Assembly (NCBI GenBank): GCA_036172245.1
Contig: JAYWIR010000077.1
Coordinates: forward strand, 310,001-363,177
Origin: Raillietiella orientalis
Taxonomy: Eukaryota
Reading direction: 5' to 3'
DNA length: 53,177 nucleotides
Shown piece by piece: positions 5,595-31,934 of the stretch. The notes beneath the pieces were generated by a model that was not told the DNA's origin, made no database searches, and saw only the letters and a program-made list of their open reading frames with translations. Every line of letters begins with the position of its first letter. Position 1 is the first letter of the stretch. A program made the position numbers and the translations under genes.

Positions 5595-5710
5595 TTGATT
5601 CCAGAGAATGTGTCAAATATAACATCTTTTATCTTTGTGTGATTGAGGGTGTTTGTATTGTCAAACAACAAATATCAAGTGCAAATTAATTGCAGCACTC
5701 TGTAGGTATT

Positions 5711-9900: not shown

Positions 9901-12900
9901 TGTATCCGCTTGCTTTCATTACCAAGTGTGATGGGTGGAGGATCTGGTTTCGAATGGTAACAAATGCAGTTCCTCTACGTTTAGCCGCAGGTCCTTGCAG
10001 CATTTCGTGGTTTCATAGGAACCGTTTGTTAATCGGCAAATACAAATGCTAAACAATGCTGAGAATTTCAGCATCCACTAGTTGGAATCTCTGGTTGCCT
10101 ATGGAACAAGTCCATGTTCTATCCATGTAGAGAATCTGTGCATTCTCCGATATTTTAGGAGGTTGAGATGTTGTTCTATTCTTTTTGCTTGCTGAAAACA
10201 TGCGTGATTGATTGAACCCTAATTTAGTGGGAATGCGAGTGAGTTTTCTTTCGGGGTGGTGGTGCAGTGACCGAGAGGAGCAGTGGGCCACGTGCCTCGA
10301 ACTTGAGGATGGTGGAGATGCCACCCGGGTACTTCGGGACGTTTATTAAAAAAAACGTTTCACTCGTCATTACAGTGTGTGGTACAAGGCCCAACTAACG
10401 GCCACATAATGCCGGACCTGCCGGGACACCGGGACGCAGCCCGGTGTGACTCTCCTCGGCAGTGGAAGGGGATGGGGAAGAAAACAAAAAGAAAAATAAA
10501 CCAGTAAACCAAAAAAAAAAGAGTTTTTTTGGGGAAAGGAAGGGATCACAGTCCACTGGGAGGAGGGTCCATCCTTAGCAGGATATCCTCGATGTCCATC
10601 TTCAATCTTCCCAGCTGGAGCCATCCAATAGCTCTCCGCAGGAAGCGAACAGCATACGGGATGACAGCCATCGCATTTGAATCCACTCCTTCGCCGCAGG
10701 TATCGCTCCAGGCCGCCACGATGCCTCGAATACAGCAGAGTGCTGCCACGGCTGCAGCTGGCTCAAGGGCGTCCCGAACGAAGAGAAGACGGAGAACGTC
10801 GCTGGGTTGGCTGCCCACAGGGAGACCGAAGGTCGTCCCGAACCGTTCCCAGAGGGGACGGAGGGCAGCACAGTCAACAAGTAGGTGGGAGAACGATTCC
10901 CGCTCTCCGCACCTGGCACACTGAGGATCCACCGCTCCCCTTGTCCAGTGGAAGCGGCGTGCGTTGCAGGGTAAACCCCAATGCAGCAGTAGCAGCGCCG
11001 ATTCTTGCCACTTAAGGGGCAGGATCCTCGATTCCAACAACACCGGGGGCCACTTCAGCGCATCCATGGGGATGGCGAGCAGCTCACCCCATCGCAAAAG
11101 TCCTCTCGGCTGGACGCTCGGGGCCGTGGCGTGGGTCCGCCAGTTCTCTTGTTGTCCAGCCGCTTAACATCTTCTCCCTGCCTGCGATTCGGCAGGAGAC
11201 TTGCCACCTCGGCTTCTGGATGCCGCTAAGCGCTCTCCGGAGGTAGGGCATCGCCGTAGCAAGGGGGGTCGTCTCTGCCCACGTGCAACCCGCGGGAAAT
11301 TCAAGTATTTCCCGCAGGGTGCGGCGGGCGTATGGGCCGACACGCAGGCAATTCATGGGGTCTTCACTCCTCTGGTTTAGCTTAGCCCAGGTGCCAGCAG
11401 TCTCCTTCAGCCAGGCGGAGGAGTTGGCGAGGCTACAAACCATCCAGCTGTTCTCCTTCGCCAGGGTTGCCATGAGCCCGGGCAGTAGGCCGCATCTTCG
11501 GATCTTCCGACCGGAGCACAGAAGAAAAGACGCGAGTCCTTCGCACCGGGACACACGACTGGCGAGGAGGCGAGCCGGAATGCACCAAGGGGTGCTCCAC
11601 ATCTTCGCTGCGATGGCGAGGGTGCGCCATCGCAGCTGAATTTCCACGCGCTCCAGCGTCAGGAGGCTCGAGACCTAAGACCGCCGTCCCGACGTGGAGC
11701 GCACAAGTCCCTCAGAGGTACTTGGGGCCTGGATGCTGGAGGATGGTGGAGCAGAATGAATGAATGGCCCGATTTCGAAGGAATGGTATTCATTCCTTGA
11801 GCACCATTTTCACGGATTGCGTGAAGTCTCTCCGAAAAAACTGCTGCTGATTGCAGAAATTTCTTTGCACCACATATGCTGGAAGGGTACGATCCTAGGT
11901 ACAGGATGGGGAAGAGGAATAGGTATGGAACACCTGCGGAGTGTCCATATCAAAAGGAAGATGGGGGCAATCGAGTGAGAATTTGAAATAAGGAGTCAGA
12001 TAAGGCAAGCAGTCGGTTGAAGGCCATGGAGTGCTGCGTCAACAAACGCGGTGATGTAATGGGGAATGGAAGCAGGAAACATGCTCGTGAATAGGAGACA
12101 GACGGGGATGGTAATGATTAGGGAAGTCGACGAAAAAGAAACATCTCTTTTGAAAAAAGGGAAACACGGACTTTTGTGATTTCTTTGCAGCATTGGCTCC
12201 TAAGAAACCAATTGCGTTGAGGCGGGGTGCTGCTATGGCGTGTAGTTCGGTTTTATCAACAGAGTTTGAGTAAAAGCCGAATGGTGGGTGAGCCCTGCAC
12301 GGGGTGAAATATGAACAGAAGATGAATGCGAGTTAGAAGCCTTCAGGAAAAACAAATGCAGTGATCGGAAATTGGAAAATTTTTAGTATTCTTGAGAAAA
12401 GGGTACTTGGAAATCGATACTCTCGTTTCCATTCTGTTTTTTCCAGGCAACTCACCAACGTGGATAACCTGAAGAGTGTAAGTTGAGTGTGTTTCTTGCA
12501 TGCGCAACGGGTTAGAGAGAGGAGTGTGGATGGTGCTTAGGGAGAATGAAGGATGAATCATGGTTGTGCATTGGTGAAGGGGCAATGGTTGGTGGACTGG
12601 CGTTGCATTGATCTTTTCATGTACATACAGGTTCTGTTAGTGAAGTTGTAGGGTTGGATGAGGACCATGGCTAATTTATAAAGATCTGTTCGTGAGGAAT
12701 AGAGATGAGCTTACTTTGGGTATTTAAGGGTGTAAGAATTTGGACACATATGCCAGGTAATGTGGTCACATGCGACTGAATCTCAGAGGGATACCCGGTG
12801 AATGAAGGATGTTCAGGTTTCGAAAAGTAGAAGGAGAGACATAGGGTCAGTGTGTTCCTTTTCTAGGTATGTAGAATGGTAAGTGAGATGAATATTGAAT

Positions 12901-13500
12901 GCTTCAGCAAGTCTGCATGGAAAGTGACCTTGGAAGGATGCAAAAAAAAGAGCAGATGATGGGAATGGATATGGCGCAAATGTGGCTTGATTTTCGATAA
13001 TGATGAAAGCTAAGGCAATAAAGATGTTGATTGATAGAGTATCGGAGGAGGCACCTGAGTTAATGACGATGGTTTTCGATAGTGATTTGATTCTGGTGAC
13101 GAGTCTGTGCAGAGGACCGTTGTGTAGGGATAGTAAAAGTTTTGAAGACTAAAGTTTGCATGGATGCAGTAAGATGGAATATCTGGTGGAGGGATGGAAC
13201 ATGGACAGCGAAGAGGAGATGGTGTTTACCATGAGTTTTCTGTTTCGGTGAGCGGTATGGAGGCTGATGCACGTACAAAACGGGATGTGAAGAGCATGAT
13301 TAGATGGTGGATGGCAGCTCTAGAGAAGCGAAGGACCTAAAGCCAACATGTGGGTACCATGTGTGGAATAGAATCAGCTACTTGAATGTCAAAGTTTCGG
13401 TGTTCCCACTCGACAAGGTTTCTTTCTTTGCAGTCATCTGTATATGGTACTCATTTAGGTTGTTGAAGTCAAGGGGTCGACTAGGGTCGAGTTGAGTGGG
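7000..13500 (-). mobile_element. Heavily degenerated RLE-type (NeSL/Utopia-like) non-LTR retrotransposon, split by the Tx1-like insertion at 10318-11738; outer boundaries approximate
   Basis: Minus-strand remnants run in the expected order: possible Zn-finger region (~12.5-13.3 kb), SPIRVISSVQGG (GVxQG-like, ~8.65 kb), AYAHD (YADD-like, ~8.48 kb), SIQLWK (SxLxPWQK-like, ~8.0 kb), ARLNKV (~7.6 kb). Many stops and frameshifts. Confidence 0.5.
10318..11738 (-). mobile_element. 5'-truncated L1/Tx1-clade retrotransposon (copy A): ORF2 C-terminus and 3'UTR, with 13-bp TSD
   Basis: CAPRRDGGLG motif and zf-RVT-type CARCGERESFSHLLVDC. Perfect flanking direct repeat GAGGATGGTGGAG at 10305-10317 and 11739-11751. 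Near-identical to 35.13-36.53 kb. Confidence 0.9.
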
Positions 13501-16479
13501 CACGAATCTGTGCCGCATGCCGCAGAGCATTTTTGAAATAGAATTCCTCGTTTAGTTACAGTGGTAGATTGCTGGTTAAGAAGTCCACAGAGATAGCATC
13601 ATCCTGGATACCAAGGAAGGGGCCAGCTCGTTACTGCTATGCGTCTTTTGACGCTTTGACCATGCGATTCGTGCTGGGAAGTGGTACGAGAAGAAAAGCA
13701 ATTGCGGCGAACCACGTTCCCCATTTCGTATGGTAAGTGCATTGAATAAGCAGCGTCCGTGTTCCTGAACATGGGATGCACTTCTGGCGGTAACCGGGAA
13801 CAATAAAGTGGAACGTTTGGAAGTGCCTTTCATGCTCCTGTGTGCAGTCTCTGAGAGCCAAAGTTGAACGGCTCTTTGATTTCTGGATGATTAATAACGC
13901 TGCAAAGCAAAAGTCCAAATTCCGATCCAGCGAACTATTCAGCGGATCATGCACAGGAAGAAAATCGTCTGCGTGTTCATCAAGGACAGCGTGGAAGCTT
14001 TCTTCCCCTTTGCGGCATTTGGGAACACGAGATCGTGGAAGAAAGAGCGCGCCGTGATTCCTGTCCAACGAGTCCCAGTCGAACTCTGAAAGGGACAGAC
14101 TGTTCGCTGGGATGCCAACCACGTGTTGCCAAAACCTACTGAACCCCATAACCTCACGTACCAGCGCAAACAGTGGATCGACGGGTGAACGATCGATTTC
14201 ACTGCGTCCACGAGGAGAAATCCAAGGGCATGCAGCTCGAGAAACCAACGTTGACGTCTTTATTCCGATCGAACAGCTCTCGAAATGGAGGCAACGGAGA
14301 TGGGAGCCTCCGGTTTGTCTTTTGAATTTAGCGCAGGGAAAACCGGAATGTTGAGGGGAGCTTCCTGCCTTGAACTCCGTCATGAATCCAAGGAGGCACT
14401 GACCGTTGTGTGCAGCTTCATTAGCATCGGGCAAGCCTCTATCCGTTCAGGGCCCCTCCGACAAAATGAAGGGGTGCTCACGATTCTTTCAAGGAAGCTG
14501 CGGACTGTTCCCTGCAGCGCGCTTGTCGTTGCGCTAGAGGTTCAAAAACCTGTGCTAGGGGAGCCTTCATTTGAACTGCTTAGCTCTGACAACAGACATT
14601 TCGCTTGCAGGGCATAGAAGTGGTGGACGTTCACATAAGGAGGAAGTGCGTGTCTACGCACTTTTCGAATGCATGCAGGAGCGAATTTTTAGTGAAGGGT
14701 CACGAAAATTTGCTGCTTTTCACTGAAGGAAGAAAGGAGTTACAGTACAGTATTCTATATGAGAAATGTACGCCTCGTGCTAAAGACGGTACAGTATTGC
14801 AGCGAATGAGATTCTTTGTATTCAATCTGAGGTGCAGATGGCTGGAACGAAATGGCATGTATGTCGTTTTAAGTGTCATCTCCTCAAACTATCATATTTG
14901 AATGTGTCGAGAAGTGATGGGAGACGTATGAGATTTCCGATATGGTAAGGACACCAAAGATGCAATGCAGGACAGCTGTGTTCTGTGCATGCGAGCTGAA
15001 CTGCGGTTTTGCCCTTCGTGAAACCTTTTCCTGCTTGCTTTACGTTCTTTTTTTTTTTTTTGGTAATCTTCTCTTTGCTCTGCCTCCTCTTTTCTCATTT
15101 TACGGTCTTCAGGTTTTCGAATGACTTGATTTTCTCTTTGACAAGTTTTCCGCATCCAGTGGCCCCCCTTCCGTAAGTGCATTCTTGGTTTCCAGTTATC
15201 TCCTTAGATCTGCTGGCCTTTTCAAGATTGGCTCCTGCATCTCGTCCGTTGTTTGCGCATTCTGATCATTGCAGGTCGCTTTTACTTTCGAGCTTTTGAT
15301 ACCCCGGTATTGTACAGACATTCGGTGGATGGCTGCATTCGTTGCAGCGTGCAGCTGGACATGCATCCACTCGATGTCTGCAGCTGCTGTGTACAAGACG
15401 AAAGTGAGGAATGCTTCCTATGCGTGACTTGAAAGTCGTCCGACAAGGTCTCCAGTTGCGCGATCTGTCAGCACTCTGGGTAGTGGCGTACAGATTGATC
15501 TTGACCAAGCGCCTCTCCCGAGGTGTTCCCGAGCAAGTTTCCCGTTCACTTCGATTTCCACGCACACAGAGGTGCTCTCAGACGGTGTTTTGCTCCATCT
15601 CAGAGCTGAGGCCGAAAAAGGGGGTCGTCGTCGCAGTTCTTTCATTCAGTTTCTTCAACAAGCAACCGCTTAGAGAGGTAGCGTCAACGACAGGACCATC
15701 GAGCATTCTGGTATGATCACAGTCTGCGCAAGTGGTGAGGTTACGCGCAAGCGGCAATATCGTTCCCCCACCCCCTTCGAATACACAGTTTCTTTATAAT
15801 GATATACATACATGTCTCGCACTGTAGTGTTTTTGCGCCCCTTTTAGGATAACTTCGGGGTTTTCACCGGGGTTCGTTTTCAATTCCATTCACGTTTTCA
15901 ACTGCTAAGTGGCGTGCCTTTGCCCTAAGAACGTGACCGTTGATCGCATTTGGCGCAGCTACGGCGGCTGACGCGTAGAACGCTGCGTCCTGCTGCCGCA
16001 GGCGCGTTTACGTGCCTAACCATATGGTATGAGGCTTTGGCTGGCTCGTCTCTTTCGCAGCACTGGGCGGTCTCACTCTGGGCGTGTGTCTGATGAAGCC
16101 TCCTGCAATGAACAGGCACTGCCCATTCTTCACTACATGGAAGGGCGGAGGATGTAAAGTTCGCCGATTTTTAGTGACGCAAACAGTAGAAAAACGGCTC
16201 CCAGATACACTTTAGTGGTTTGCACCTAGCCAGTCTCAACCTAAAACTTACGCTTCCCAGTAATGCGGTTTGCGGTCATCGCAGGGGTCAGCCTTTGGTG
16301 CAACGACCGAGCATTACTCTGGAGGACTCGGTCGTGATCAGGATCTCGAAACCAAAGTTGAGGGACCAGAAGCTACGGGAGAATGCTTCACAATACGAAA
16401 TCGAAAATGCCTTTTTTTGTCTAAAACCTGCATTACGACTCATGGCGAAGCTTATACTGAGTGTCCGAAATGGACAGTA

Positions 16480-17389
16480 GGAATCCTCGACTATCGAATC
16501 CATCGTACACGCAAAATAGTAAACCGCGTGCACAACCCATGATTCCATTTCGTCATTCCCACCTCGTTTCTAATTTGTGCGATTTGAGGCCACCGATCGG
16601 ATGTTGGTGAAATGATGAACAGTACCGTGAATTACGTTTACTGAGGCATACATTCGGGCTGTCGATTTAGCACCAGTCAGATGCAGCAATTCGTGCTCAA
16701 TATTTGGTTCACATACACACATACAGTCCTGTTCTTACATTTGCGAAACACAGGAGATCTGTTTTGCTGCCAAGTCAGCTGATTCCACATTCCTTCAGAA
16801 TCACCGTTTTTCACAATCCTAAAATCTTCCTCCTGTCCGGCAGTTGTCGCAACAACAAAATTATTCGAAATATATAGTCTCCAGCTATTTCGGAATTCAA
16901 CACATTCGACTCCTTTTGATCAGAAAAAGTATCCGTAAGAGGTTCCAAAGATATCCTCACACCGTACAACTTTACATACTCAAACAGTCTCGACATTCCA
17001 CTCAGATTCCAAAATCCAAGCAACGTACTCGTGGTGCGCTTATGGAAATCGGTATGATACACAAAGCAACCGACATAATAACCTTCACCACCAACAAGCC
17101 TCAACTCTTGACGAACAGTAGAAGCACGCTTCGTAAGATGACAATCCCTAAACCGAATACGCGCACCAGAACGCAACACCTTCCCAATCCAGGAGGAAGC
17201 ACGTCCAAAATTGCCACGATCTTTAACACGCCTCCTCAGAGAATTACGCTTACGATGATTACCACGAGAATGCAATGCACGACGTCTACGACGCTGTTTA
17301 CGTAAAGAAACATTCCTAAGATCAGCACGATGAGGTGTACGTGTCGCAACAGGCATCCTCACACCGCAACCTCTTGTATCCTCATGCAT
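16480..17389 (-). pseudogene. Endogenous CRESS-DNA virus capsid (Cap)-like gene. ORF 17389/17356 to 16811, probably continuing through frameshifts to ~16480
   Basis: Arg-rich N-terminus (RKQRRRRRALHSRGNHRKRNSLRRRVK), then SRLFEYVKLYGVRISLEP, which resembles the circo/CRESS Cap 'LF-x-x-Y-R-I-x-G-V-K-x-x-F-x-P' strand. Lies head-to-head with a Rep gene. Downstream frames give RTVCVYV and WVVHAVYYF. Confidence 0.7.
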
Positions 17390-17546
17390 TCCAAAATGAA
17401 GGGAACAAAGAGAATACGAACCCCCTGACCCTCACATTCCGCTAATTTGACACCGACTAGGCAAAAACCACTTAAAAAGTGCAGAGGATGACCCTGAACT
17501 CGGCAAACCGTATCAAACCAAAACACACACACCAAAAGGTTGCAAC

Positions 17547-18050
17547 ATGCCGTACGCAAAGTGCACGCTGCGGTGCTTCACCCCAAACAACTGGATAACC
17601 GCAGAAGAAACACAGGAAAGGTCACTTCGAAAAGGAAAGCACGGAATGCTCGGAAAAAAAGCAAGCTCCACAGCAACCCCGCATCTCCAGGGATGCTTCC
17701 AAACAGCAATACCCTCCACGATACCTCAGCTAAAAGGAATCCAACGTTTCTCAAGAGCTGCCGTGCAAACCTCCAAACGAAATCCTCAACGCCAAAAGAC
17801 CGCCATGCGAAAGGGGCCCACCGAGAAACGAAAAACCTCCTACTACACAAGATCAAGAACATCCATTGCAAGCACGAGTGAACACGGTTCATTTCAGATC
17901 ATCGCATACGGAAAAGAGGGAAAAAAGAAAAATCGTTCTGCGAAAACGAACCACAACCATTCGAAAAACAGAAAGCCTTCAACATCGGCGGTATAAGACT
18001 CGGAAAATCGTACTCTCCAAACAATCCAACGATCCTCAACGCATTACAAC
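17547..18050 (+). pseudogene. rep: Endogenous CRESS-DNA (circovirus/cyclovirus-like) replication-associated protein Rep, frameshifted and interrupted
   Basis: RCR motif I CFTPNN (from 17574; consensus CFTLNN) and motif II TPHLQG (17676-17693) at canonical spacing. A degenerate motif III region follows (RAAVQTSKRNPQRQK). Walker A GGIRLGKS lies at 17987-18010 in a shifted frame, just after RKTE. Confidence 0.85.
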
Positions 18051-18051
18051 C

Positions 18052-19200
18052 ATGGCAAACCTCTACCCCTTGAAACCTCTCTACCGGCTCCTGGCAGCCC
18101 ACGCATGGATCTCCTGCCGCCCAACGAACTTTGACTCCTGGCGGCAGGAACCGTTGCATGCCTGGGCAAATAACAGGATGTTTCGCTCTTGGAACTCCGT
18201 TGCGCCAACCTCTCCCCGTACTGCAAAGTGGATGACGTCTGGAACAGCTGGAGAAGTGGATTCGCCTGGCCGTCACACCCCTCGCCGACGCGCTGTCAGC
18301 CCTCAGGGCAAGTGACGACAGCTGCGAACCGGCGAGATGGGAGGTCGCCTGCACCATCGCAGGAACAACACGACCCATTGGCGGCTGGAGGAATTGCGAG
18401 CTGGCGGACGCCGCCACGCCTCGCCACGTTCCGAAGGGACTCCTTCGATGGAGTGAACACTTGAGTGTGCCCCCCGAAGAACTTGTGGTCCCTCCCTCCT
18501 GTTTGAACACTTCTGTGTTCCCCCTTTCGTGGAAGCAGGACGTGATCATGCTGGTGCATTGGGGGTTTCACTCCAACCAGCGCACGAACCGTGTTTCCGG
18601 GGGAGTTGTCTCCCCAAACTGCAAGCGGTGCGGGGAAGTGGAAACGCTCCCGCACATGCTCCTGGACTGCGGTGCCCTTCTAGGACTTTGGCGGAGGCTG
18701 GCCTCAGCTCTCCTGCACCAGGGGAACACCGCGAGGGACTTGATGCGTCGCTTCTTCACGCCAGGCGGCCTGTCTTTAGGTGCTGTCATCGCAACGGTCT
18801 GTTGCACCCGCGCCATCGACAAGGCCCACCGAGAGCTGGAGAAGCTGGCGATTCGTTCTCAGGCCACCGGAATAGCCGGCGTGAGCATGGCGTCGGCTGC
18901 CGAGTGGGCCCATCTGCCAGTGGACGTTAGGAGCGATATCACCGGCATCCATCGCCGGTTTTGAAAGGAAGGAACGGCGTTACCAAAGACCCCTGTCCCC
19001 TGCCCTCCATATTTTCATTTTTATATATATATTTTTTTAAAGTAGTGTATATGTGGTCCCCTCCCTCCCGTTCCGGACTTTCGGCATACCGACCTGCGTG
19101 TCGGGGATCCCACCCCCTTCGTCTCTTGTTTTTCCTTTGTCCAGGAACTCTGTTCCCGGATAGTTTCTTAATAAACGCCCCGGCGCACCCGGGTGATAAA
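18052..19200 (+). mobile_element. 5'-truncated L1/Tx1-clade retrotransposon (copy B) inserted in the viral rep gene
   Basis: HAWISCRPTN, GLLRWSE and CKRCGEVETLPHMLLDC, then a pyrimidine-rich 3'UTR ending AATAAACGCCCCGGCGCACCCGGGTGATAAA. Confidence 0.88.
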
Positions 19201-20199
19201 CAGCCAAACCGTCACATCGGAAGGCATTCAGCCAACAGCACACCAAATAAAAAAAACAACAGGCTGATGGCCGTGGCCATCACATGACAACCACGCATTG
19301 CGAAAGGCTCGAAGCCAGCCACCGAAACAACCAGGTTGCAGAGACAACACAAAAAAAAACATCACAAACAATTTGGCAAGCAATCCAAACAAAAACCAGC
19401 AAACACGAGAACCAAAAGAAAACAAATCCAAATGCATGATAACCGCGGGGATAACACCAAACCCGCAAAAGACTCAGGTGAAAAAAAAAAAAACAAAATA
19501 AATCACCCTCAAAAAAAGCACTGCATGTTGTGTTTAGACACGAAGACAAAAGAACATCCAAAACCAAATCAACCAAACCAATCAATCAAAACCAAAGAAA
19601 GAAGTCACCCACGACAAAACAGGGACTCCACCAGAACAAACCACCGTCCAGTCAAAACAAAAAGTCCAGTTGAAAGCAACAAAAACAAAAAGCAAGGCAG
19701 CTGAGCATTTCAAAGCACCAGAAAAAGAAGGCAGGCACCCACAACGACCGCCTCCCCTTGGCACAGAAGGTATGAGCCAAGATGAACGGCCCTAGACGAG
19801 CACATTGCCCGCAAACGAGGCGGCCCACAGAAGACGGGCAGAATCAACGGGACAACTTCATCATCCCGACACACTGTCAGTCGCGCTGCAACCGTTTCAA
19901 TGGCAAACGTGAAGAGAACCAGGAATCAAACAGGAGACAAGGAAAGTAAGCCCTCGAAAACGAAGACGCGTCTTCGTTTTCGGGCTACAGACGGAAAAAG
20001 GAAAAGCTGCTCTTAGAGCAACAGGCCCGCTCGGCAGTAGCGAGCGCTGAGCTCAGGAGGACCTCCGGAAGGGGCGTGCCGGGGGGAAGAACGCCTCAAC
20101 CATGAAGAGGAGCGCCACTCTGGCAGTGGCATGTGCCGATGATGGACGAGGGATCAAGCAGCGCATCCAGAAACTGTGGATTCCAATGCAGTGTAGTTG

Positions 20200-21900
20200 A
20201 GCGTACTGACATCAGAAACCTGTTCACTTGGCCCGCCAAGTGCAACTCGGGAGGTGGGAAAAGGGAGAATAGGGCGTCACGGTTCCGCGACCAGGAGCTT
20301 CCTCGGGGGGAAGGGTGGCTCCCGGGGCGATCGTAGTGGCTGCGAGAAGGTCGTAGCGAACTTCCTATGAAAGTTGGATGGCAAACGGAAGCGACTTTTC
20401 AAGGGAAACGTGTGAAACACAAAGACAAACTTGGCAAGCGGAGAGCCCGCTGACCAGGGCGCCCCACGGACGACCGGCGGAATCTCCGGGGCAACCCGAC
20501 CTTCTGGTCCGACTTCCGGATTCGTTGCAACGCCTGCAGTGGCACGCTTGAAGAGAATTAGGAATCGAATGGAAGGCAATGGAAAGATCTTCCCCGGTGG
20601 ACGGGGCGGGTTTTTCGTTGTGGGCTGCCAAGAGGAGAAACGGATAGGTTGCAGGGAAAGGGTTGGCCCGCCAGTGGGAAGGGAGCGCTTTTGTTGTGGA
20701 AGGATGAGGAAGCGCTGCGATGTCCTGCGGTCAGTTTTGCGTCTGCGCACTGCATGAAGGAGTGCAGTGGAAGCAAAAGTCTACGTTGTCCTAAGGATGC
20801 AAAGGGTGAACCAAAATTCCTGGGTGGGTTCCCCATCAAAAAAAGGATTAAAAAAAAAGGTGGGGATTTCTGTTTTCGTTGAGTTTTTTTTTCTTTGCGC
20901 TATTTTTTTGACGTTTCTTTTTTCTCGGTTTTTTTTCTTTTCTTTTTTCTTCTTTTTTTTCTTTTCTTTTTTTTTCGTTTCTTTTCTTTTTTTTTCTTTT
21001 CGTTTTTATTTCCCTTTCATTTCTTTTTTTTCTTTTTTTTCTTTTTTGCTTAGAAATTCAGTGTGTGACCTTGTTGCAGAGATAAATTCCGACGACCTGC
21101 TCACACTCCTACGGCGACGGTCAATTGGGGACAAGATGACTAAGTTGACTGAGTTGCAGATTGAAATCTTGAACAAAATGCCATTCCTGCGGGCCACGAA
21201 TGCAAATCCACACGAAAGCGGAAAACGACGTTGTGACCGGAAACTGAAAGAACTTCCCGGAATTGGGATCCCCGTGGAAAAAAAGGGACAAAAACTGGGG
21301 AATTGGAGGCCACTGGGATGGCTATGCCTGGCCGACAAAATTCCAGTGCACAAGAATACGACTATTTGGGGAAATGGACCGAAAAAGAATTCCGACCATG
21401 AAGGTGGATGGGGGGTGATGGGGAGTACATGGGAAATGTTCATCTCCGAACGTTTGGGAGGACAAGGATTGCTCCTGGAGAGAGCGGCGGTAGCGAATGA
21501 GCGTGGTCGGAGTGGTTCGATGGTCGGTTCTGCTGGATGGATCGAGCAGTGACGCGAGCGGTGCAACTGTTCCTGGTCGCCTACCTTTTCGACTGGTTGC
21601 CTTCTTCTGGCTGTCTCCAGGGATGCAATTGGATTCCGCAGTTTCCAGTGGTGGATGGAAGGTTTTTTTTTTTTTTCGTCACCTCTAAGGCATGTTTCCC
21701 CAAGGTAAGGACTTCGCCTCTGCTTCTGCGCAGCACTTCCTGTCCACACTGAGGAATCTTGTCTTTGGAAAATGAGGTGAAAACTGATTGTGGGATGTGT
21801 GGTTTCCATGGTTTTTTTGTTGTTGTGAGTTCTAGTGCGCAGGATTCGCAATTTGCTCCGTGCATTCCTAGAGAGAATGTTTTTTTTTTTTTCTGAGATT
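20200..21900 (-). mobile_element. Old degenerate APE-type LINE fragment (endonuclease to start of RT)
   Basis: Minus-strand KNILSRNARS (ILSWNVRS-like), ETTH, CTGILSARH (GDFNAxH-like), GPEG and RPIL remnants in the expected order. Matches are weak. Confidence 0.4.
20880..21050. repeat. Poly-pyrimidine (T-rich, TnC) low-complexity tract
   Basis: About 170 nt of almost only T and C; it produces the spurious poly-Phe ORF at 20767-21552. Confidence 0.85.
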
Positions 21901-21926
21901 GTGATGGTTTCTGTTAACGGGGACGT

Positions 21927-24900
21927 TGATCATCCAGATTTTCCGGGGCATTCCTTGTCGAAATTGAAAACACAAAAGTATTGCACAATATGGTCGTCAT
22001 ATGCTTTTCTTGGTTGCACATTTGGTGCTGCCACTTTCGGGAGACTTGCCGTGAACCAGTGCAGAGACTGGTGAGGTCCTCTCCGTCACCTAAACGGAAG
22101 GAAGAGACGAAAGAAAAATAAACCAAAGGAATTGAAAATTGGGGGAAGGGGATGTTTCTTGGGGAAGGGAGGGATGGGAATGTACCACTGTTTGCCTGGA
22201 TCAGAACTCGGCATCCTGTTCAGGATACTGACAATGGCTGCTTTGAAATTTCTTCGTTGTGATTAATTTGACACGCTCTGGAAAAAGATCGTTGTCGAGT
22301 GCAGGACATTACTGCTGTTTTGCCTTCTTCTTTTGGCGTTCCACCACGCCACGATTCCGCGAGCACAGCTGAGCAGTGCTAGAGACGCGGCGTAGGGCAG
22401 AGCATTACGTCTGAAGATGGCCGTAAAATATTTTTAGGGCCGCCTGCCGTTAGATTTACAATGGACAAGAGTCGATCCCAAAGTTCACGGCGGGCGACGC
22501 AGTCCAATACGAGATGCGGGAAGCCCTTTCACCGCACTCTGCACAACGGGAATCCCCACTCCCTAGTGTCCAGTGAGAGAGGCGTGCTCTGCATGGGATT
22601 CCCCCATGCAGCAATAGAAACGCCGCCTCTTGCCACCCCATTGGAAGGGAGCTCCTGTGCCAATATGCTGGGGGCCACTTCACATCCTCCGGTTGCATTC
22701 CGAGCAGCACGCCTCAGCGCATGAGTTCTTTCGACGCGACACTCGAAGTCGCAGCGTCCACTGCCTGCCGAGTTGTCCACGCTTTCTTTAGTTTTTTCCT
22801 GCCTCCAATGATGCAGGACACTTCCCACGATGCTCGTCCGTTTCTATCTCAAGCGTATCTGAGGTAGATCAGCACGGGAGCAAGGAGGATGGAGGAAGGC
22901 CACAGCAATTTGCGTGGGTTGTTTACCATCCGCCGCAGGAGCCGTCGAGTGCAAGGACCTCGTCGGAGGTAGGTGGTTTCCACCTCGCTCGAACCATCGA
23001 TTCTTCCTCATGCGGAAACTGACTCCTGAAGCCAGGCAGTACAGTTCGCAGGGAGGCACGAGTTCCACGTGTTGTTCCTCATGAGAGCTACCATGTGGCG
23101 CAGCTGATGGCCGCATTAGCCCAGATTGCGTTTGTATGTTACGACGATCGAGGACAATCCTTTGCAGCCGGTCACTCTGCTGGCGAGGAGTCGAGCGGGT
23201 TCGCACCATGGCGTTGTGCACAACTTCGCCGCAAGGTCGAGTCTTGGAAATTGGAGCTGTCGCTCCATGAGCTCCAGCGTAAGGAGACCCAATCCACCGT
23301 CCCTGCGTGGAGCTCAGAAGTCATTGAAGCGGATGCGCTTCCTCGCTGTGCCCCACAGGACTTTCCTCAGGAGGTCCTCGATCCGTATTTTTATCACGGG
23401 TGGGGCGGGGCATGGAAAATGTAAAGGGAGAAGGAGAGGGGCTGCAATCGTGTTCCGCACCGCGGCCCGTTCCTACAAGTGAAGCTTGCCGTTCCCGAAC
23501 GGGCCGATCACCAAATCCACCTTTTGGAGACGGTCGGACCAGGCTTCTGCCGCGCAGAAGTCCCTCAACGCAACGTCAAGGTACTTAAAGCACCCGCCCG
23601 TGGGGATCCCCAAGCGGATCCATTCCGGCAGTCCAGCCCACGCCGAGCCGACATAAATCAAGGACGACTTGGCTCTGTTCACTTCCAGGCTCTTCCCACA
23701 GCCGAGCAGCCCTAAGAAACCGTCGAGATCGGAAGCCGAGGTGGACTCGGGGAGCAGCAGCAGAAGATCCGTCTGCGTAGGACGACACGGTGGGCATGCC
23801 GGGAAACGTACTCGGCAGAGTTTCCAAAGTCTCGCTGTATGCTGTCAGCACCAACTCAAATTAGATGCTGAACAGCAGGCGGCTCAGGCTGTCATCCTGC
23901 CTTATGCCACGCCGAACCGGCGCACGCTGAAACAAATATGTATGAGCGCGAAGCGCCACAGGGATCGCAGATAGGCCAGGAAGACGGTCGGAAATCCCAT
24001 GCGTTCCAGGAGTTCCAGAAGGAGTTCCTGGGGCTCTGGTAGCTAGCAAAGACTGGCTCGATTTCACGGGCTGGGAGTTCCAGAAGGAGTTCCTCGTCGA
24101 CGCAGTGAAATGCTTTACTCAAATCGACCGCGAATGCAAGGGCTCCGGACCCGGCTCTTCCTCGTTGACCTTCCTCTCTCTGGTCAGAGGAAACGCGAGG
24201 ATCCTCTTGACCTGTCTGACCTTCGCGCTGTAGCGGCTGCCACCATGGTTCTTTCGGGAAAAGCGTAGGTCTGTTCCGTACTGACCACGGATTCTGCCAG
24301 CCGTCCAGGTCGCTCAGTTGGGTCGCTATAATTTGGCAAGCGAATTCGCGTCTGCATTCAGTAGAGTGATGGGCCACCAGTTGCCTACGTTGCGAAAGTC
24401 TCCTCCTTCCGGAAGGAGACGTGCTTTAGCTGACCGGAACGAGTTGGGAACGTCCCCTCGTTTGCGGATCAGCATGCCTAGTTCGAGCACCAGGGGGACC
24501 AGCTCTGCCGCGAAGCATTGGTAAAACTCCGCGGGCTTCCCCTGGTGCCTTTGTTTTTTTGAACTTTCCGATTGCAGAGATAATCTCCGCCGTCGAGAAA
24601 GGCTCCTGGAGGTGGTTCCGATCCTCATCTCTCAACGCTGGGGCACCCTCTGGAAGCAATCGCCACGCAAAGGCGCGCTCGGGTCTTGCTCTCGCGTAAT
24701 GTGAGGAGTAAAAAAACACGCAAGATGTGGCTTACCTGCGCTGGGGATGAGCATTCTCGGCCTTGGGCGTCCGGCAAGCTGGCTGAACCGGATCGTCAGG
24801 TCTGCCCTTCGGCCCCAGCTCTGCGTTCCGCCAGGCGTCGGACGTCGGCATTCCTGGAGTAGAGACGGAGCTGTAGGTAGGCCCCCAATGCTTCGCCAAA

Positions 24901-26690: not shown

Positions 26691-29600
26691 AGTCCTCCGT
26701 CGCACGCGTAACCATTCCTGTGTGAAGAGAAGCGCGCGCAGTTTCCATCCGCCACCGGGATTGTGGGCGCACTTGGGGGCAGGAGGCACCGTCGCAGCTG
26801 GAGTCTTTCGGTTGCTCTTCCTGGTTTGCATCTGACTGCCTTCCTCGTGCGGGATTCGCGTCCCGTGCACTTTTATGTTCTGCCAATTCGTTGCGTGCAG
26901 GTGGCTTCCTGGGCGGGATGCCCGCAGCGACGCGCATCTCTAGCAGTGCTCGTCACTTACTGGACCTCTGCTGCACGAACCCGCATTTCTTCCGATGTTT
27001 TCGCTTTCGTGCACACAGTGTTCGCCATGTTGCCTTTTGCTACACGCGAGCTTTTCGAACCGTGCCCTCACCTCCGTTTGCGGATATGTAGCGGGAATCG
27101 GGATGCTGGCAGCAAAGAAAGCATGTGCAGGAAGCGTTCAGGGAACCGCGCAACCGCTCCCATGCGTGCGGAGGTCAGGCGTGTTTTCGACGCCGGCTGA
27201 GCGAACGAAAATGCGAAACGTATGACGTGCGAGATGCGACAGGCGTCATCACGTCCTGCAACCCATCGACGTTCCGAGATTAGAATATTCCGTTTAACGC
27301 CTCTTAGCGAGTAACGTGCCTTTCGAACCATCTTGGAAATCGTTTGAATGCTCGGTGGTCGTGTTCCTGAATGCTGCGTCTCGTCCTTTCCTCTCTCCTC
27401 ATTCTGAGATGCACTTTCCCTGCAATCTGCTCTGCGATCCGAGTGGCTAGCATCCATCGTTCTACCTTCCGAAGACACTGAATGCAGAACTCGCTTGGGA
27501 TGGTGGCGTATTGCGCCACGTTCGAGGCAGGGAGTTGCGCTCTTTGCCTCATCCGTTTTCCTCAGTGCTGTCAGATGGTGGGCGACCTCGAAAGCATTCC
27601 GTGCTTGCCTGGGCGCTCGCTGGAAACCGTCGCGTTTCCCCGGGCGCTTCCTTTGCCAGAAATCGGGAAACTGGCTTCCGGATGCCGTCGACCGGACGAT
27701 CGTGCCACGGAAGCCAGAACGCACCGCCGCAGCTGCCAACGACGTCCGCTTGCCTGCGATTCGAACGAAACTGTGCAATTTCTTGCTTGCTGTACTACGC
27801 ACTCAATCCCGCCACCGTGCCCCGGAATGGCACGATTCGCATTCGAAGGGTTAGCGCACAGAGGTTTTTCTAGCATGTGTTGATGACAGGGGTATCAGCT
27901 GCAAGCTGCTCATGCCTGCTGTCGTTTCTTCTGCTGTTCGACGACGAAGAAAACACTCACCTCCGCGGCTCCCGCGTACTTGGAAGTGTGGAACCTCTGA
28001 TCGGGAGAGGGTACTTTGTTCCCGAAGTGAGCGCACGTGGACTCCCGGTGCGAGCAGTCCAGCTGCCGTAGACTTGCGGACTTGTGTGCTCTCCTTGCGT
28101 CGCATTCGGGTGACCGCCGCGTGTCTGGCGTGCACGCAAGTTTCACGCTCCATCCGTGGCTACGGATGAGAGGCAGAGGCCCCATCGGAAAGAGAACCCT
28201 TGCGTTGGGAGCATGAGAACGTCCCAACTCTGCTGCTCACCACTGAGAAAGTAGCTGTGGGAGTCGTGGGGCGTGTGCCGTGACCGCTGGTTAACCAAAG
28301 GATTTGTTGGCTTCCTGCGAACGTGGCTACAGTAGCGGATGCTCAGCCTGGAATGGTCGGATGGGAGGTGGAAATTGCAATGATGCGCGGCGAGGAATGG
28401 GCGATGGCGAGTTGAAGAAGGCTGGAGAGACGCACGCTGTGTGCTTTCCATCCGTACCTGTTTCGAGTCCGGAAGTATCCTTCGTGTCGTATTTGTTGCT
28501 CCTTCAGGGCATATGAGGTGAACCAAGAGGCACGTTTGTTTGTGGTGGCAACGATCGCGCTGGTGGTGAGCAGGCTGGTGAGCGTTATTTTCCGATGGAA
28601 TCCTTTCTTCTTGTTTCGTGATTGCTTGCATTGCGAGTGAGCGCTGTGTACCGCGGGACAGTCGTGTTGGTATTTCGATCGCGCTGACGGGTGCTGCGTG
28701 GTCGGTCGGGAAGGGTTCCCGGATTCCATGTTGATGCTGCTGGGCAGCTGCACTGTCGCCGTTGACGAGGAGTACGAGGTTGTGGCTTCACAAGTTTCTC
28801 GCTGCTGGAAAGGATGGCGGCGCATGTGACACTGTGAGTTGCGGTTGCTAAAGCAGGTAGGGCGTGGGATGCTGCATCTCAAGGAGTTGTCCAGCTAGGG
28901 TGGCTATCACGTTGTACTTGGTGTCGCTCGTGTCCTCGCAGCAACGTTCCAGGTTCCGCAGTGGGGTATGCGATCGGGTGTGCAATTGGGGGAATTTGCC
29001 TGAGAATTGATGTGGATGGGTTGCGTCCTACTCTGCAGCGACGAAATGATTGGCATCGATGTCGCGCTGGCGATTGCCGATCCTTGGGTGTGGTGCGAAG
29101 CAGGAATGACGTGAGGGAGAATATCGGTTTTTGATGGTGCTTCCCTTTGCACGGTTGGTGGGGTTTCTCCATGGGCGCGTCGGGATGGTACGTACTGCGT
29201 GTGCCGAATGTTGGTGTGGTGCTGTCGGAAAAGGTTTGGATAGGGATGGTGGGGATGTTGGTTGGTTATCGCACTGTGTTGCTGATTTCGGACTTTTTCG
29301 TGATTGCTGACTCGGCATGGTTGTGGAAGAGGTCCAATGTTGCACGATGTCCTTTGCGGAGAGGCGCATGCTGGTTGCGAATAGGATTGTTGGTCGATTC
29401 GAGTGATGGTGTTGAGGAAGAAGACTTGAGACCTAGTCATGGTTTTGGGGGGTTTTCGGTGTTCAGCGGAATTTATTATTATCATTAATATTTATTAATG
29501 GAATGTAACTAGTATTTAATGGCGGAAAAATAATTTCGATTTCGAAAAGGCAAGTCTTCTGGATCATCCTGATGGAAGAAACGGTGCTGCGATTGAGAGG

Positions 29601-31020
29601 TACTTGGAGTTTGCTTTTCAGCTTGTCGATTTTTATTTTAGTCTGTAGGCAGCCCAGGTCTCCATCTTCCTTAAAGTTTCTGATGGTAATGGTAATCCTT
29701 GCGACATTCTTCAACGCCATATGGTGACAAATGCATGAAGCAATTCCCTTCCCATCCGGTTTCCTAGTTTTGACCTCACGTTGCCTTTCAGCCAAGAGAT
29801 CAGTTGAGCATCAGACGTCAATGATTACTAGGATCTTGTATTGGTTCAAATTATCCTCATGTTGTTAGCCCGAAGGATTCGGGTTTACTCCACCTGGTTG
29901 TCACATGAAATGAAAATGGGACAATTTCGAATTGACTCATTTTGCAAACAGTTGTTCCACGTGACAACGGAGCTCCTCACGAATAACGTGGTTAAGCATG
30001 AAAATGCTACAAGCAGTGCTTCGAAGCGTTTGAAGTACGTAACTGATAAATGTTTACAAAAGGGAGTAACGGTGAATTCAAAAAATGAATGTCATCTTGA
30101 TATGCATGCCCACGATTTGATTCAAGAATTACAAGAGCACATTTACGCTTATTTAGGTTATAAAATGAAAACGTTTGCAGTCGGAACACGCCGCCCACCA
30201 CGCAATGGAGAAGCTGGAAGAATAAACCGTGCAACACGAAGAAGGAAGATGTTTGTCCAGGGCAAAATCTACGGCATGTTAGATCACTCCCCATATTAGA
30301 GGTGAATGCATCACTGGTACCAAAACAAACACACCCGATGGCAAAATGTGCCACGACCCTCATGATGCCTTGTTTTATGGTTCTTATCAACAGCCTTTCA
30401 AAATGAGGACGTGAAAACACAATTTGTTCATTTCTTCCCTTATATTTTAATGCAGTAATAAATAGAGTGAAGTGAGGCCACGCTTAACCAAGCTACTAGA
30501 TCAAGAATTGAAATGATATATATCTATATAGAAATAGTATACATCATAATTTTACATTGTGAAAGAATGTTATTCCATAATTATATAGAGAAGATTTGAA
30601 AAACTTGGTCAACGTATTTTCTATTACATTGTGATGAAAAATATTTTCATTTTTGCTTCGGTTTCGGGCGACAGCGAGTATCCGACTTTCCAGATCTTTT
30701 TTTTTTTCAAGGAGTTGACGAGGAGAAGAGAGGAATTTTGAGGCGAGGGGTGGATTTTCCACAAAAGGAAAAACGTTTGAAGGGGTTCGACCAAAATTGG
30801 GGGAACTCTTAGACGAACTCCCTTGCCGGACGCTTGCGAGGTTTCCCCAGAGCTTTGCAAAGACCGCAAGATCTCTTCTTTCAGTTTGGGAAGAGGACCA
30901 CAAGCCCGGTTCGATTGGATGCTTGGATAAATGCAGTGCTGAAAGGATGGGAAAAAAGGGCTTGGAGCATTTCAGGAGCAAGCAGTTGCATTGCAATCGG
31001 AGGAAGCAATTTGTGGAAAG

Positions 31021-31473
31021 CGAAAATCCTCATTTATAGGTATCCTCCCAATAAAAATAATAAAAACATTGAAATTTGCAACAATCACATTGATTATCTC
31101 AGAAATTTTCTTATTCGTTTCCTTCTTTGGATCATTCTTCCATTCCAGACCAACAGTCAATCTACAATTTCGATTTTCCTGACCTCCACCCAATCTTGCC
31201 CTACCCTACACCACAGAAGTTGGCACCATACTTGGCACCATTCTCCGGCTAAGATCAGTTATCTCAGTTACATGAACACATCACTCTCTCTCAAAAAGAA
31301 ACGATTCCCTCTCATTTTTATCCCTACTTGTTACTATCACAAGTGGATTCATATTCCTTACAACTCAAGCCATAGAATACTTCATACTCGAATTCTCTAT
31401 TACAGATTCAATTTTCCGTTCAACATTCTTCATCGCAACAGGATTCCACGGTTTGCACGGTTTGCATCTCATT
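31021..31473 (+). pseudogene. cox3: NUMT cox3 fragment
   Basis: IISEIFLFVSFF.SFFHS, SVTWTHHSL, TFFIATGFHGLH (with a 9-nt tandem duplication GLH-GLH). Confidence 0.93.
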
Positions 31474-31934
31474 CCACCCCACATCTCCATCAACAACCAC
31501 CCAATCCCCATCAATAAAATTCCATCTCCAATACGATTACTCAAAAAAGAAATCATTCCTCCATAATTAGAACCGCAATTCATAGAAAAAATAACCAAAC
31601 AATAAGAAATAATATCCAACCCATCCCAACCCAAAATAACAGTCACTAACCTGCCGCTCATAATCAACAGAAATATTCTCACTACAAACCAAAATACTCC
31701 AATAGAAAATCACTTCTTCTTCCACTCAATATATTCCCAACTATACATCATAACCAAAAAAGAAATAACCATCACATGCCTCATAAGAAAGAAACACTTA
31801 TCGTACAAAACAAACAACAAACCTCATTCCATTCCTCCCAACCTTATCAATGATCACTCTATTAACACCACCCTACTTCAACAAACAAAGCACAAACCCA
31901 CATTTACAACTATCATCCTCACCCACACCACCAT
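31474..31934 (-). pseudogene. nad5: NUMT nad5, 5' part only
   Basis: ILGWDGLDIISYCLVIF...SNRIGD motif; ATG at 31934. Confidence 0.92.

What the first reader, a model, noticed from the sequence alone, without database searches (positions are those of the whole stretch)
16480..19400. Endogenous ambisense CRESS-DNA virus retaining both Cap and Rep
Seen: Rep motifs CFTPNN, TPHLQG and Walker A GGIRLGKS on +, and an Arg-rich ORF with a capsid-like LFEYVKLYGVRISLEP strand on -. They diverge from a ~160-190 nt intergenic region. Known: this ambisense layout and these motifs are characteristic of Circoviridae and related Cressdnaviricota, and endogenous copies are most often recognised from rep alone. 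Inference: a near-complete fossil genome of a probably undescribed ssDNA virus, which would tie that lineage to this invertebrate host.
Basis: partly seen in the sequence, partly recalled or inferred. Interest (0 to 1): 0.85.

Follow-up and report, generated by a model that had tools for sequence, protein, structure and literature searches.

The report
Partial fossil of a small DNA virus
An arthropod chromosome holds about 1.25 kb of a small circular DNA virus: a dead front half of its replication gene, back-to-back with an intact arginine-rich gene that sits where a capsid gene would but resembles no known protein.

Summary
Partly confirmed. A profile I built from 74 natural CRESS-virus Reps hits only the plus ORF 17451-17993 among 1581 six-frame pieces of the window (E=1e-5, next best 0.59; 0 of 2000 shuffles reach its score). 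Pfam, PDB and the large protein searches all missed it.

The Rep is dead and incomplete. The catalytic tyrosine is missing. The Walker A sits in another frame and is not significant on its own. Nothing of the helicase beyond it is detectable. A host LINE 3' fragment fills 18063-19202, and 19203-19950 shows no Rep similarity and no codon periodicity.

The minus ORF (181 codons, 16814-17356) is clearly coding sequence: codon periodicity p=6e-10, codon usage unlike the host's, and a length reached by 0 of 3000 shuffles. It matches no capsid or any other protein in any search, including circovirus capsid profiles. "Capsid" therefore rests on position, the arginine-rich start and a weak language-model lead.

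No origin stem-loop was found, and read support for the junctions could not be tested.

This is a partial fossil of about 1.25 kb, not a near-complete genome. The scan had already noted CRESS-like fragments elsewhere in this genome.

The parts
16814..17356 (-). Intact 181-codon arginine-rich ORF (stop at 16811-16813), in the position and orientation of a CRESS capsid gene. It has no detectable homologue.
   Evidence: ORF. Codon periodicity chi2=54.5, p=6e-10 for 16893-17356. Third positions are T .49, G .29, A .15, C .07, against host exons at A .20-.35, T .27-.34. The 206-codon stop-to-stop frame is reached by 0 of 3000 shuffles. No homologue. ESM atlas lead of 0.94/0.92 to Cressdnaviricota clusters.
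16940..16987 (-).
   Evidence: A loose pattern fitted afterwards to this stretch occurs in 2 of 121 natural capsid candidates, both circovirus-like (L004, L008), at a similar relative position. Profile and hhalign comparisons give nothing.
17357..17546 (.). 190-nt spacer between the two start codons. No origin stem-loop is recognisable.
   Evidence: DNA fold z=-1.35, with 20 of 200 shuffles folding as well. No inverted repeat in the spacer. No NANTATTAC match here; the 2 matches in the window lie elsewhere.
17544..17813 (+). Remnant of the Rep HUH endonuclease domain: motif I at 17574-17591, motif II at 17676-17693, and a motif III position that lacks the tyrosine. It lies in ORF 17547-17993 (stop 17994-17996).
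   Evidence: hmmsearch --max with a profile of 74 natural Reps: E=1e-5, 21.2 bits, profile positions 34-122; next best of 1581 pieces is E=0.59. 0 of 2000 shuffles reach 21.2 bits; 1894 were scored, maximum 15.6. 16 of 36 conserved columns are identical.
17987..18010 (+). Walker A-like GGIRLGKS, in a different frame from the endonuclease remnant.
   Evidence: It aligns to the P-loop of the Rep profile (positions 183-202) and is colinear with the N-terminal match, but scores only -1.8 bits, E about 100. Third-position A+C enrichment supports this frame over 17904-18023.
18063..19202 (+). Host LINE 3' fragment (end of ORF2 plus the 3' UTR) that abuts or interrupts the Rep remnant. It is not viral.
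   Evidence: 71% identical over 1135 nt to 38363-39435 on the minus strand, with further copies sharing the same 3' end. Weak zf-RVT hit at E=0.029, and siblings at 2.6e-4. It lacks the A/C skew.
19203..19950 (.). A-rich, A/C-skewed low-complexity tract. It was claimed as the rest of Rep, which is not shown.
   Evidence: No Rep-profile match better than E=1.4. No codon periodicity, p=0.73-0.91. Composition is A .40-.53, T .09-.14.

Best explanation
This is an endogenous fragment of about 1.25 kb (roughly 16811-18062) from an ambisense CRESS-DNA virus. It spans the 5' parts of both genes and the spacer between them.

Shown:
- The plus-strand part is a dead Rep. Its endonuclease domain is recognisable with motifs I and II, but the catalytic tyrosine is gone.
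- There is at least one frame shift before a degenerate P-loop.
- The gene stops being recognisable where a host LINE 3' fragment begins (18063).
- The minus-strand ORF is real, intact coding sequence with non-host codon usage.

Inferred:
- The minus ORF is the capsid gene of the same virus. This rests on its head-to-head position 190 nt from rep, its arginine-rich start, and third codon positions that carry the mirror image of the strand bias seen in rep.
- The locus no longer works as a virus: no active Rep, no helicase, no recognisable origin.
- Whether the capsid-like ORF is expressed is unknown.
- The route of entry is unknown. It could be direct integration of viral DNA, or LINE-assisted copying.
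For: Rep homology:
- Custom profile from 74 natural Reps, leaving out the 3 loci found through the window's own 17-mer. It gives 1 hit among 1581 six-frame pieces at E=1e-5, next best 0.59.
- 0 of 2000 shuffles reach the score.
- phmmer of the 93-residue remnant against 76 natural Reps: 75 at E<=10, best 25.1 bits, E=8e-8.
- All 4 of these natural Reps that I scanned carry Pfam Viral_Rep and RNA_helicase.

Motif chance: per-codon rates give, by my calculation, about 1e-4 expected pairs per window.

Coding status of the minus ORF:
- Periodicity p=6e-10, among the 6 strongest periodic blocks of the window alongside host exons, mitochondrial-derived genes and a LINE RT.
- 0 of 3000 shuffles reach its length.
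- Third positions differ from 3 host exons.

One replicon:
- In 51 natural ambisense CRESS genomes, Rep third-position A+C correlates with capsid third-position G+T (r=0.68, p=4e-8).
- The window pair (0.69 and 0.78) lies at the same extreme as the most skewed natural genomes, such as L062 at 0.66/0.79.

Other support:
- Language-model lead for the minus ORF: 0.94 and 0.92 to Cressdnaviricota clusters, one with 29% Circo_capsid.
- Host setting: CwfJ and DSPc genes at 3864-6421, MIF4G/MA3 gene at 48789-51519, LINE copies and a mitochondrial insert in between.
Against: - Pfam finds neither Viral_Rep nor RNA_helicase nor any capsid family, at E<=1 or at E<=10 on subpieces.
- PDB phmmer finds nothing relevant at E<=10.
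- The search for homologous proteins gives nothing at E<=10 for either ORF.
- The exhaustive phmmer of the minus ORF against 1.84 billion proteins gives 0 hits at E<=0.001.
- The minus ORF matches none of 1060 ORFs from 232 natural CRESS loci (best E=0.16), none of 17 capsid-cluster profiles (best E=0.29), and not the circovirus capsid profile.
- Arginine richness is not unique. Three other six-frame pieces reach 16 Arg in 50 residues, against 17 here.
- The language-model recognition value (2180) is below the tool's 2300 mark.
- The Rep remnant has A+C of 0.64 at first and second codon positions, outside the natural range of 0.47-0.56. I cannot explain this.
- No origin stem-loop was found.
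Confidence: 0.72

Rival explanations
1. One reading: a near-complete fossil genome (16480-19400 or beyond), with the Rep helicase continuing to the right of the LINE insertion and the capsid gene continuing left to about 16480.
For: The A/C strand skew resumes after the LINE (19203-19950), so the LINE could be an insertion into a skewed block of about 2 kb. A possible 6-7 nt target duplication exists (GCAAACC at 18054-18060, CCAAACC at 19204-19210; sequence).
Against: No Rep-profile match right of the LINE (best E=1.4, and to the wrong part of the profile). No codon periodicity there. The tract is more skewed than the coding parts and looks low-complexity. Other skewed, non-periodic blocks with no Rep-profile hit occur elsewhere in the window. 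Left of about 16890 the skew and periodicity stop. A 6-nt repeat in A/C-rich DNA is weak evidence.
Confidence: 0.08
2. The Rep remnant is real, but the minus ORF is not the capsid gene of that virus. It could be another captured gene (for example a capsid or nucleoprotein of an unrelated virus) or an unrelated ORF that happens to lie next to it. This genome is reported to hold clusters of mixed viral fragments.
For: No sequence or profile similarity to any capsid. Earlier notes on this genome describe clusters of separately captured fragments (unchecked here). Lower atlas hits include astrovirus, tombusvirus-type and anellovirus capsid families, which share arginine-rich arms.
Against: The 190-nt head-to-head spacing is the standard ambisense layout. 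The ORF's third positions carry the mirror image of the strand bias in the rep frames, as in natural ambisense genomes. The top three atlas clusters are all Cressdnaviricota.
Confidence: 0.18
3. A variant on origin: the block is a LINE-made chimeric retrocopy. The reverse transcriptase started on LINE RNA and switched to a Rep-sense read-through viral transcript. That would join the Rep 5' part, spacer and antisense capsid directly to a LINE 3' fragment.
For: The Rep remnant and the LINE fragment are on the same strand and directly adjacent, with the LINE's own 3' end at 19202. Earlier notes report LINE-associated viral captures with target duplications elsewhere in this genome (unchecked here).
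Against: No direct repeat of 8 nt or more between 16500-17000 and 19180-19300. It needs a transcript running antisense through the capsid gene, for which there is no evidence.
Confidence: 0.12
4. The capsid-like ORF is kept by the host (exapted), while rep has decayed.
For: It is intact over 181 codons with strong periodicity. Meanwhile rep has lost its tyrosine, has a frame shift, sits on the longest branch of the tree (3.26 against a median of 0.47) and has abnormal first- and second-position composition.
Against: Its codon usage is still unlike the host's, so there is no sign of long residence under host mutation pressure. The rep ORF is also open for 150 codons. No expression data and no orthologues are available. 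The ORF may be C-terminally truncated: 181 residues, whereas most arginine-rich natural capsid candidates exceed 220.
Confidence: 0.1
5. Chance motifs in low-complexity A/C-rich DNA, or an assembly chimera with contaminating virus.
For: The standard searches all fail. The composition favours T, P, H, Q, N and K codons.
Against: Profile E=1e-5 and 0 of 2000 shuffles. Motif-pair expectation about 1e-4. A contaminant would have an intact Rep. The block is joined to a LINE family with at least 3 other copies in the same window.
Confidence: 0.03

Closest known systems
Endogenous circovirus-like / CRESS-DNA elements (CVe) of invertebrates (Dennis et al. 2018, PMC6069186; passages read)
   Same: A rep-derived sequence embedded in an arthropod contig and flanked by host DNA, highly divergent and on a long branch. 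That paper reports 93 such sequences from a screen that included 307 invertebrate genomes.
   Different: In that screen every newly found element was rep-derived and none had homology to circovirus cap. Here an intact arginine-rich ORF sits in the cap position. It too has no homology to circovirus cap, so a screen of that kind would not have seen it.
Circoviridae (Circovirus, Cyclovirus): ambisense genomes of 1.8-2.1 kb (figures from PMC6069186)
   Same: Rep and the second ORF diverge from a short spacer. Rep motifs I and II are present. In a 90-column tree the remnant groups with two circovirus-like genomes, L008 and L009 (support 0.77).
   Different: No Circo_capsid similarity. No origin stem-loop. 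Only about 1.25 kb is present. The placement rests on the longest branch in the tree and is weak. The best pairwise Rep hit (L055) belongs to a genome with a tombusvirus-type coat protein.
Natural strand-skewed ambisense CRESS genomes in IMG/VR (for example L062, L060, L050, L017)
   Same: The same direction of strand bias at third codon positions: Rep A+C up to 0.66 and capsid G+T up to 0.79.
   Different: Their capsids and Reps are not close to the window's. Their Rep first and second positions are normal (0.47-0.56), against 0.64 here.

Membership tests
CRESS-DNA virus Rep (HUH endonuclease + SF3 helicase; Pfam PF02407 + PF00910) | Significant match to a Rep endonuclease-domain profile | tested here: met
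   The custom profile of 74 natural Reps gives E=1e-5, 21.2 bits. Pfam's own PF02407 gave no hit at E<=10, so membership holds only at the level of a decayed remnant.
CRESS-DNA virus Rep (HUH endonuclease + SF3 helicase; Pfam PF02407 + PF00910) | Motif I (FT.NN type) and motif II (HLQ) in one frame at the usual spacing | tested here: met
   CFTPNN and TPHLQG lie 28 residues apart and align to the corresponding profile columns. The motif definitions are recalled. The alignment itself is from the calls.
CRESS-DNA virus Rep (HUH endonuclease + SF3 helicase; Pfam PF02407 + PF00910) | Motif III with the catalytic tyrosine (Y..K) | tested here: not met
   The profile's Y-C-x-K columns align to A-M-R-K. 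The lysine is kept and the tyrosine is absent.
CRESS-DNA virus Rep (HUH endonuclease + SF3 helicase; Pfam PF02407 + PF00910) | SF3 helicase Walker A | tested here: inconclusive
   GGIRLGKS fits G....GK[ST] and aligns to the profile's P-loop colinearly. It is in another frame and scores -1.8 bits.
CRESS-DNA virus Rep (HUH endonuclease + SF3 helicase; Pfam PF02407 + PF00910) | Walker B, motif C and the rest of the helicase | tested here: not met
   No match to profile positions 203-317 in any plus frame of 17400-18062 or 19150-20100.
Circoviridae | Capsid of the Circo_capsid family (PF02443) | tested here: not met
   No Pfam hit. A profile of 13 circovirus capsids does not list the ORF at E<=20. 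hhalign probability is 0.6%.
Circoviridae | Origin stem-loop with a conserved nonanucleotide between the 5' ends of rep and cap | tested here: not met
   The nonanucleotide consensus used was recalled.
Circoviridae | Rep groups inside the family in a phylogeny | tested here: inconclusive
   FastTree on 90 columns places the window with L008/L009 at support 0.77, on the longest terminal branch (3.26). The reference set is unnamed metagenomic genomes.
Endogenous viral element | Viral sequence contiguous with host DNA and carrying disabling changes | tested here: met
   Contiguity holds in the assembly only: host genes on both sides and a LINE family with siblings in the window. Rep has lost its tyrosine and is frame-shifted.
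Endogenous viral element | Junctions supported by reads | not testable with these tools
   No sequencing run could be listed and no genome is held for this window.
Jelly-roll capsid protein | Eight-stranded jelly-roll fold | tested here: inconclusive
   AlphaFold2 without an alignment gave mean pLDDT 47.6, pTM 0.33. That is too poor for a fold search, so none was run.

The most novel reading that the evidence does not exclude
The minus ORF is the intact capsid gene of an unsampled arthropod CRESS-virus lineage, with no relative among 1.84 billion proteins. The host keeps it open (exaptation) while the neighbouring rep has decayed. If so, it is both the first sight of that capsid family and a case of capsid domestication from a CRESS virus.
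Probability: 0.1. Interest if true: 0.7.

Novelty: new member of a known kind. Interest (0 to 1): 0.4.

Why it matters
CRESS-virus fossils in invertebrate genomes are well known, but they are recognised almost only through rep (PMC6069186).

If the neighbouring ORF is the matching capsid gene, this locus ties an otherwise invisible capsid family to a Rep lineage and to an arthropod host. It also gives a query for finding that family elsewhere.

The case shows a practical point as well. A decayed, compositionally skewed Rep escaped Pfam and the billion-protein searches, and was recovered only by a small focused profile run without speed filters.

As a fossil alone it is ordinary, and it is not the near-complete genome that was claimed.

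Tried and rejected
Sequence and family searches that gave nothing relevant:
- Pfam on 7 and then 8 pieces.
- PDB phmmer, four queries; only chance hits to CTP synthase and an LRR protein.
- The search for homologous proteins for the capsid-like ORF and for Rep.
- The search for related loci with the window's own ORFs in viral contigs and the capsid-like ORF in metagenome contigs.
- The exhaustive phmmer of the capsid-like ORF.

Other dead ends:
- ESM atlas for Rep reached only 0.78, a lead at most.
- The AlphaFold model of the minus ORF was too poor (pLDDT 47.6), so I ran no fold search.
- Sequencing runs: none was listed, and no RNA holder was listed.
- No whole genome is held for this window.

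Ideas tested and dropped:
- Hypermutation by G-to-A and T-to-C transitions. In the minus ORF the skew sits at third codon positions, so there it is codon bias rather than editing. In rep, 20 inferred changes at conserved columns were 5 G>A or T>C, 2 the reverse, and 13 transversions, so it is not a transition-only process.
- The skew tells which strand was packaged. Among 167 natural loci with a one-strand stem-loop motif, Rep third-position A+C is 0.50 when the motif is on the Rep strand and 0.51 when it is opposite (p=0.48).
- A target-site duplication around the whole block plus the LINE. None of 8 nt or more was found.
- The capsid gene continuing in another frame (16677-16919). No periodicity, p=0.79.
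- The FEY... stretch as a capsid signature. A pattern fitted afterwards occurs in 2 of 121 natural candidates, but profiles do not support it.

Earlier-findings look-ups by place, sequence and relatives returned nothing for this locus.
Full report
THE OBSERVATION

- The plus ORF 17451-17993 has a Met at 17547, CFTPNN at 17574-17591 and TPHLQG at 17676-17693.
- A second plus frame (17882-18070) holds GGIRLGKS at 17987-18010.
- On the minus strand an ORF runs from Met 17356 to 16814 (181 codons, stop at 16811-16813). Its first 50 residues contain 16 arginines. It carries LFEYVKLYGVRISLEP at 16940-16987.
- The two start codons are 190 nt apart.

The block is strongly skewed. The plus strand is rich in A and C over about 16800-18060 and again over 19200-20000.

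STANDARD SEARCHES ALL FAIL

- Pfam gave no Viral_Rep, RNA_helicase or capsid family for any piece, at E<=1 or at E<=10 on subpieces.
- phmmer against the PDB gave nothing relevant at E<=10.
- The word-indexed search of 5.8 billion proteins gave nothing at E<=10 for either ORF.
- The exhaustive phmmer of the minus ORF against 1.84 billion representatives gave 0 hits at E<=0.001.
- Pattern-based locus searches with the window's own ORFs found no relatives.
- E-values in the very large databases need roughly 35-45 bits, and HMMER's filters remove weak, compositionally biased matches. I therefore built a focused test.

A FOCUSED REP TEST

- An exact 17-base stretch of the window (17676-17692) found seven IMG/VR loci. 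Three of them are CRESS genomes of about 2 kb.
- The Rep of one of these (L004) then brought in 80 loci.
- I built a profile from 74 full-length natural Reps. I left out the three loci that had been found through the window's own letters, so that the shared TPHLQG codons could not bias the test.
- I ran this profile without speed filters against all 1581 six-frame pieces of 20 residues or more in the window.
- Exactly one piece is significant: 17451-17993 (+), at E=1e-5 and 21.2 bits. It aligns profile positions 34-122 to nt 17544-17813. The next best piece has E=0.59.
- None of 2000 residue shuffles of that ORF reaches 21.2 bits; 1894 were scored, with a maximum of 15.6.
- phmmer of the 93-residue remnant against 76 natural Reps gives 75 at E<=10, the best at 25.1 bits and E=8e-8.
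- All four of these natural Reps that I scanned carry Pfam Viral_Rep plus RNA_helicase.
- Independently, composition-matched simulation gives per-codon rates of 6.0e-6 for FT.NN and 6.8e-6 for HLQG. From these I calculate about 1e-4 same-frame pairs at 20-45 residues apart over the whole window.
- The Rep endonuclease remnant is therefore real.

HOW MUCH OF REP IS THERE

- The alignment covers motif I, motif II and the motif III region. The columns that hold the catalytic Y..K in the family read A-M-R-K here, so the tyrosine is gone.
- 16 of 36 conserved columns are identical.
- The P-loop is in another frame. It aligns to the right place in the profile (positions 183-202) and is colinear, but scores only -1.8 bits.
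- Third-position composition supports that second frame over 17904-18023, so there is at least one frame shift between about 17815 and 17900.
- Nothing matches the helicase beyond the P-loop, neither before 18062 nor in any plus frame of 19150-20100.
- From 18063 to 19202 the sequence is a LINE 3' fragment. It is 71% identical over 1135 nt to a copy at 38363-39435, shares its 3' end with further copies, and carries the end of an RT-type ORF.
- The A-rich tract 19203-19950 has no codon periodicity (p=0.73-0.91). Similar skewed, non-periodic blocks occur elsewhere in the window. I cannot show that this tract is viral.
- The spacer 17357-17546 has no stem-loop and no nonanucleotide.
- "Near-complete genome" is therefore not supported.

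THE MINUS ORF

The ORF is clearly coding sequence.
- Over 16893-17356 the three codon positions differ sharply (chi2=54.5, p=6e-10). Third positions are T .54, G .29, A .11, C .06, while first and second positions are nearly even.
- In a scan of the whole window it is one of the six strongest periodic blocks. The others are two host exons, two mitochondrial-derived stretches and a LINE RT.
- Its 206-codon stop-to-stop frame is reached by 0 of 3000 dinucleotide-type shuffles, whose median is 66 codons. The rep-side frame of 181 codons is reached by 72 of 2999.
- Host exons in the window have A/T-rich, roughly symmetric third positions, so the ORF's codon usage is foreign.

Every test of what the ORF encodes came back empty.
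- No similarity to 121 capsid candidates (best E=0.32), and then to 1060 ORFs from 232 natural CRESS loci (best E=0.16).
- No hit from five and then 17 capsid-cluster profiles (best E=0.29).
- No hit from a profile of 13 circovirus capsids. hhalign probability against ten named circovirus capsids is 0.6%.
- The FEY... stretch resembles a segment in two circovirus-like capsids (2 of 121 candidates, using a pattern fitted afterwards). That is not significant.
- AlphaFold without an alignment gave pLDDT 47.6, so no fold comparison was made.

The positive evidence for "capsid" is fourfold.
- The head-to-head position 190 nt from rep.
- The arginine-rich start. 46 of 121 natural candidates have 10 or more Arg in their first 50 residues.
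- The language-model lead of 0.94/0.92 to Cressdnaviricota clusters, with a recognition value below the tool's mark.
- The composition argument that follows.

ONE REPLICON

- The minus ORF's third positions are rich in T and G. The rep frames' third positions are rich in A and C (A .41-.47, C .28-.30, T .10-.11). That is the same bias on one DNA strand.
- In 51 natural ambisense CRESS genomes the two measures are correlated (r=0.68, p=4e-8).
- The most skewed natural genomes reach values like the window's: L062 has 0.66 and 0.79, the window 0.69 and 0.78.
- This fits both ORFs coming from one strand-biased genome.

It does not explain one thing. The rep remnant is also A/C-rich at first and second positions (0.64, against a natural range of 0.47-0.56). 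I tested two ideas about this and dropped both.
- Transition hypermutation: of 20 inferred changes, only 5 are G>A or T>C and 13 are transversions.
- A link between skew and the packaged strand: no difference in 167 natural loci (p=0.48).

CONTEXT

- The block lies in a repeat-rich tract of about 40 kb, between host genes at 3864-6421 (CwfJ, DSPc) and 48789-51519 (MIF4G/MA3).
- That tract holds several LINE copies and a mitochondrial DNA insert (COX3 at E=3e-33, and cytochrome b).
- A dead Rep joined to a host LINE family argues against contamination.
- Read support could not be checked.
- A LINE-mediated chimeric origin is conceivable, because rep and the LINE piece are co-oriented and adjacent. 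No flanking duplication was found.

PLACEMENT

- In a 90-column tree the remnant groups with two circovirus-like genomes (support 0.77). It sits on the longest terminal branch, 3.26 against a median of 0.47.
- Its best pairwise hit belongs to a genome with a tombusvirus-type coat protein.
- I do not assign a family.

COMPARISON WITH THE LITERATURE

- Dennis et al. 2018 (PMC6069186; found in the listing, passages read) screened 675 animal genomes, 307 of them invertebrate.
- They found 93 circovirus-related sequences in invertebrates.
- All newly identified elements were rep-derived and none had homology to circovirus cap. The authors note that divergent invertebrate lineages may have capsids with no detectable homology.
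- This locus fits that picture: a known kind of fossil, with a possible orphan capsid gene attached.
- Earlier notes of this scan report CRESS-like fragments elsewhere in this genome. I did not check them.

VERDICT

- This is a real but partial and dead CRESS-virus fossil of about 1.25 kb.
- The capsid assignment is plausible but unproven.
- The near-complete-genome claim is rejected.
- Interest is moderate. It rests on the intact orphan ORF.

Noticed in passing
window 31000-34000: Mitochondrial DNA insert (NUMT). Read with the invertebrate mitochondrial code it gives COX3 (E=3e-33) and the start of cytochrome b (E=1.5e-7). G content is very low, 5-7% on the plus strand.
   Followed up: partly
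window 10352-11668 and 35183-36499: A 1317-nt inverted repeat, 97% complementary, carrying LINE ORF2 ends (zf-RVT). It is much younger than the 71%-identical LINE pair at the finding.
   Followed up: no
window 28000-29500, 20500-22000, 12500-13500, 7500-8500, 40500-41500: Further blocks with strong strand skew: G/T-rich on the plus strand in the first four, A/C-rich in the last. They have no strong codon periodicity (none among the blocks at p<1e-4) and no Rep-profile hit. Their origin is unknown.
   Followed up: partly
window 19955-19982: A perfect 28-nt palindrome at the right edge of the A-rich tract, seen as a self-hit. Unexplained.
   Followed up: no
window 16201-16320: A short stretch with marked three-base periodicity just left of the finding: A+C is 0.72 at one phase and 0.40 at the other two. 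No family hit. Not examined further.
   Followed up: no
window 3864-6421 and 48789-51519: Host genes flank the repeat tract. On the plus strand are an ORF with the CwfJ C-terminal domains and one with a dual-specificity phosphatase domain. On the minus strand are exons of an MIF4G/MA3-domain gene.
   Followed up: partly
L055:898-2301 (minus strand): This natural IMG/VR CRESS contig has the Rep that is the window's best pairwise hit. It encodes a tombusvirus-type coat protein (Viral_coat S domain, E=1e-14), which makes it a chimeric 'cruci-like' genome.
   Followed up: no
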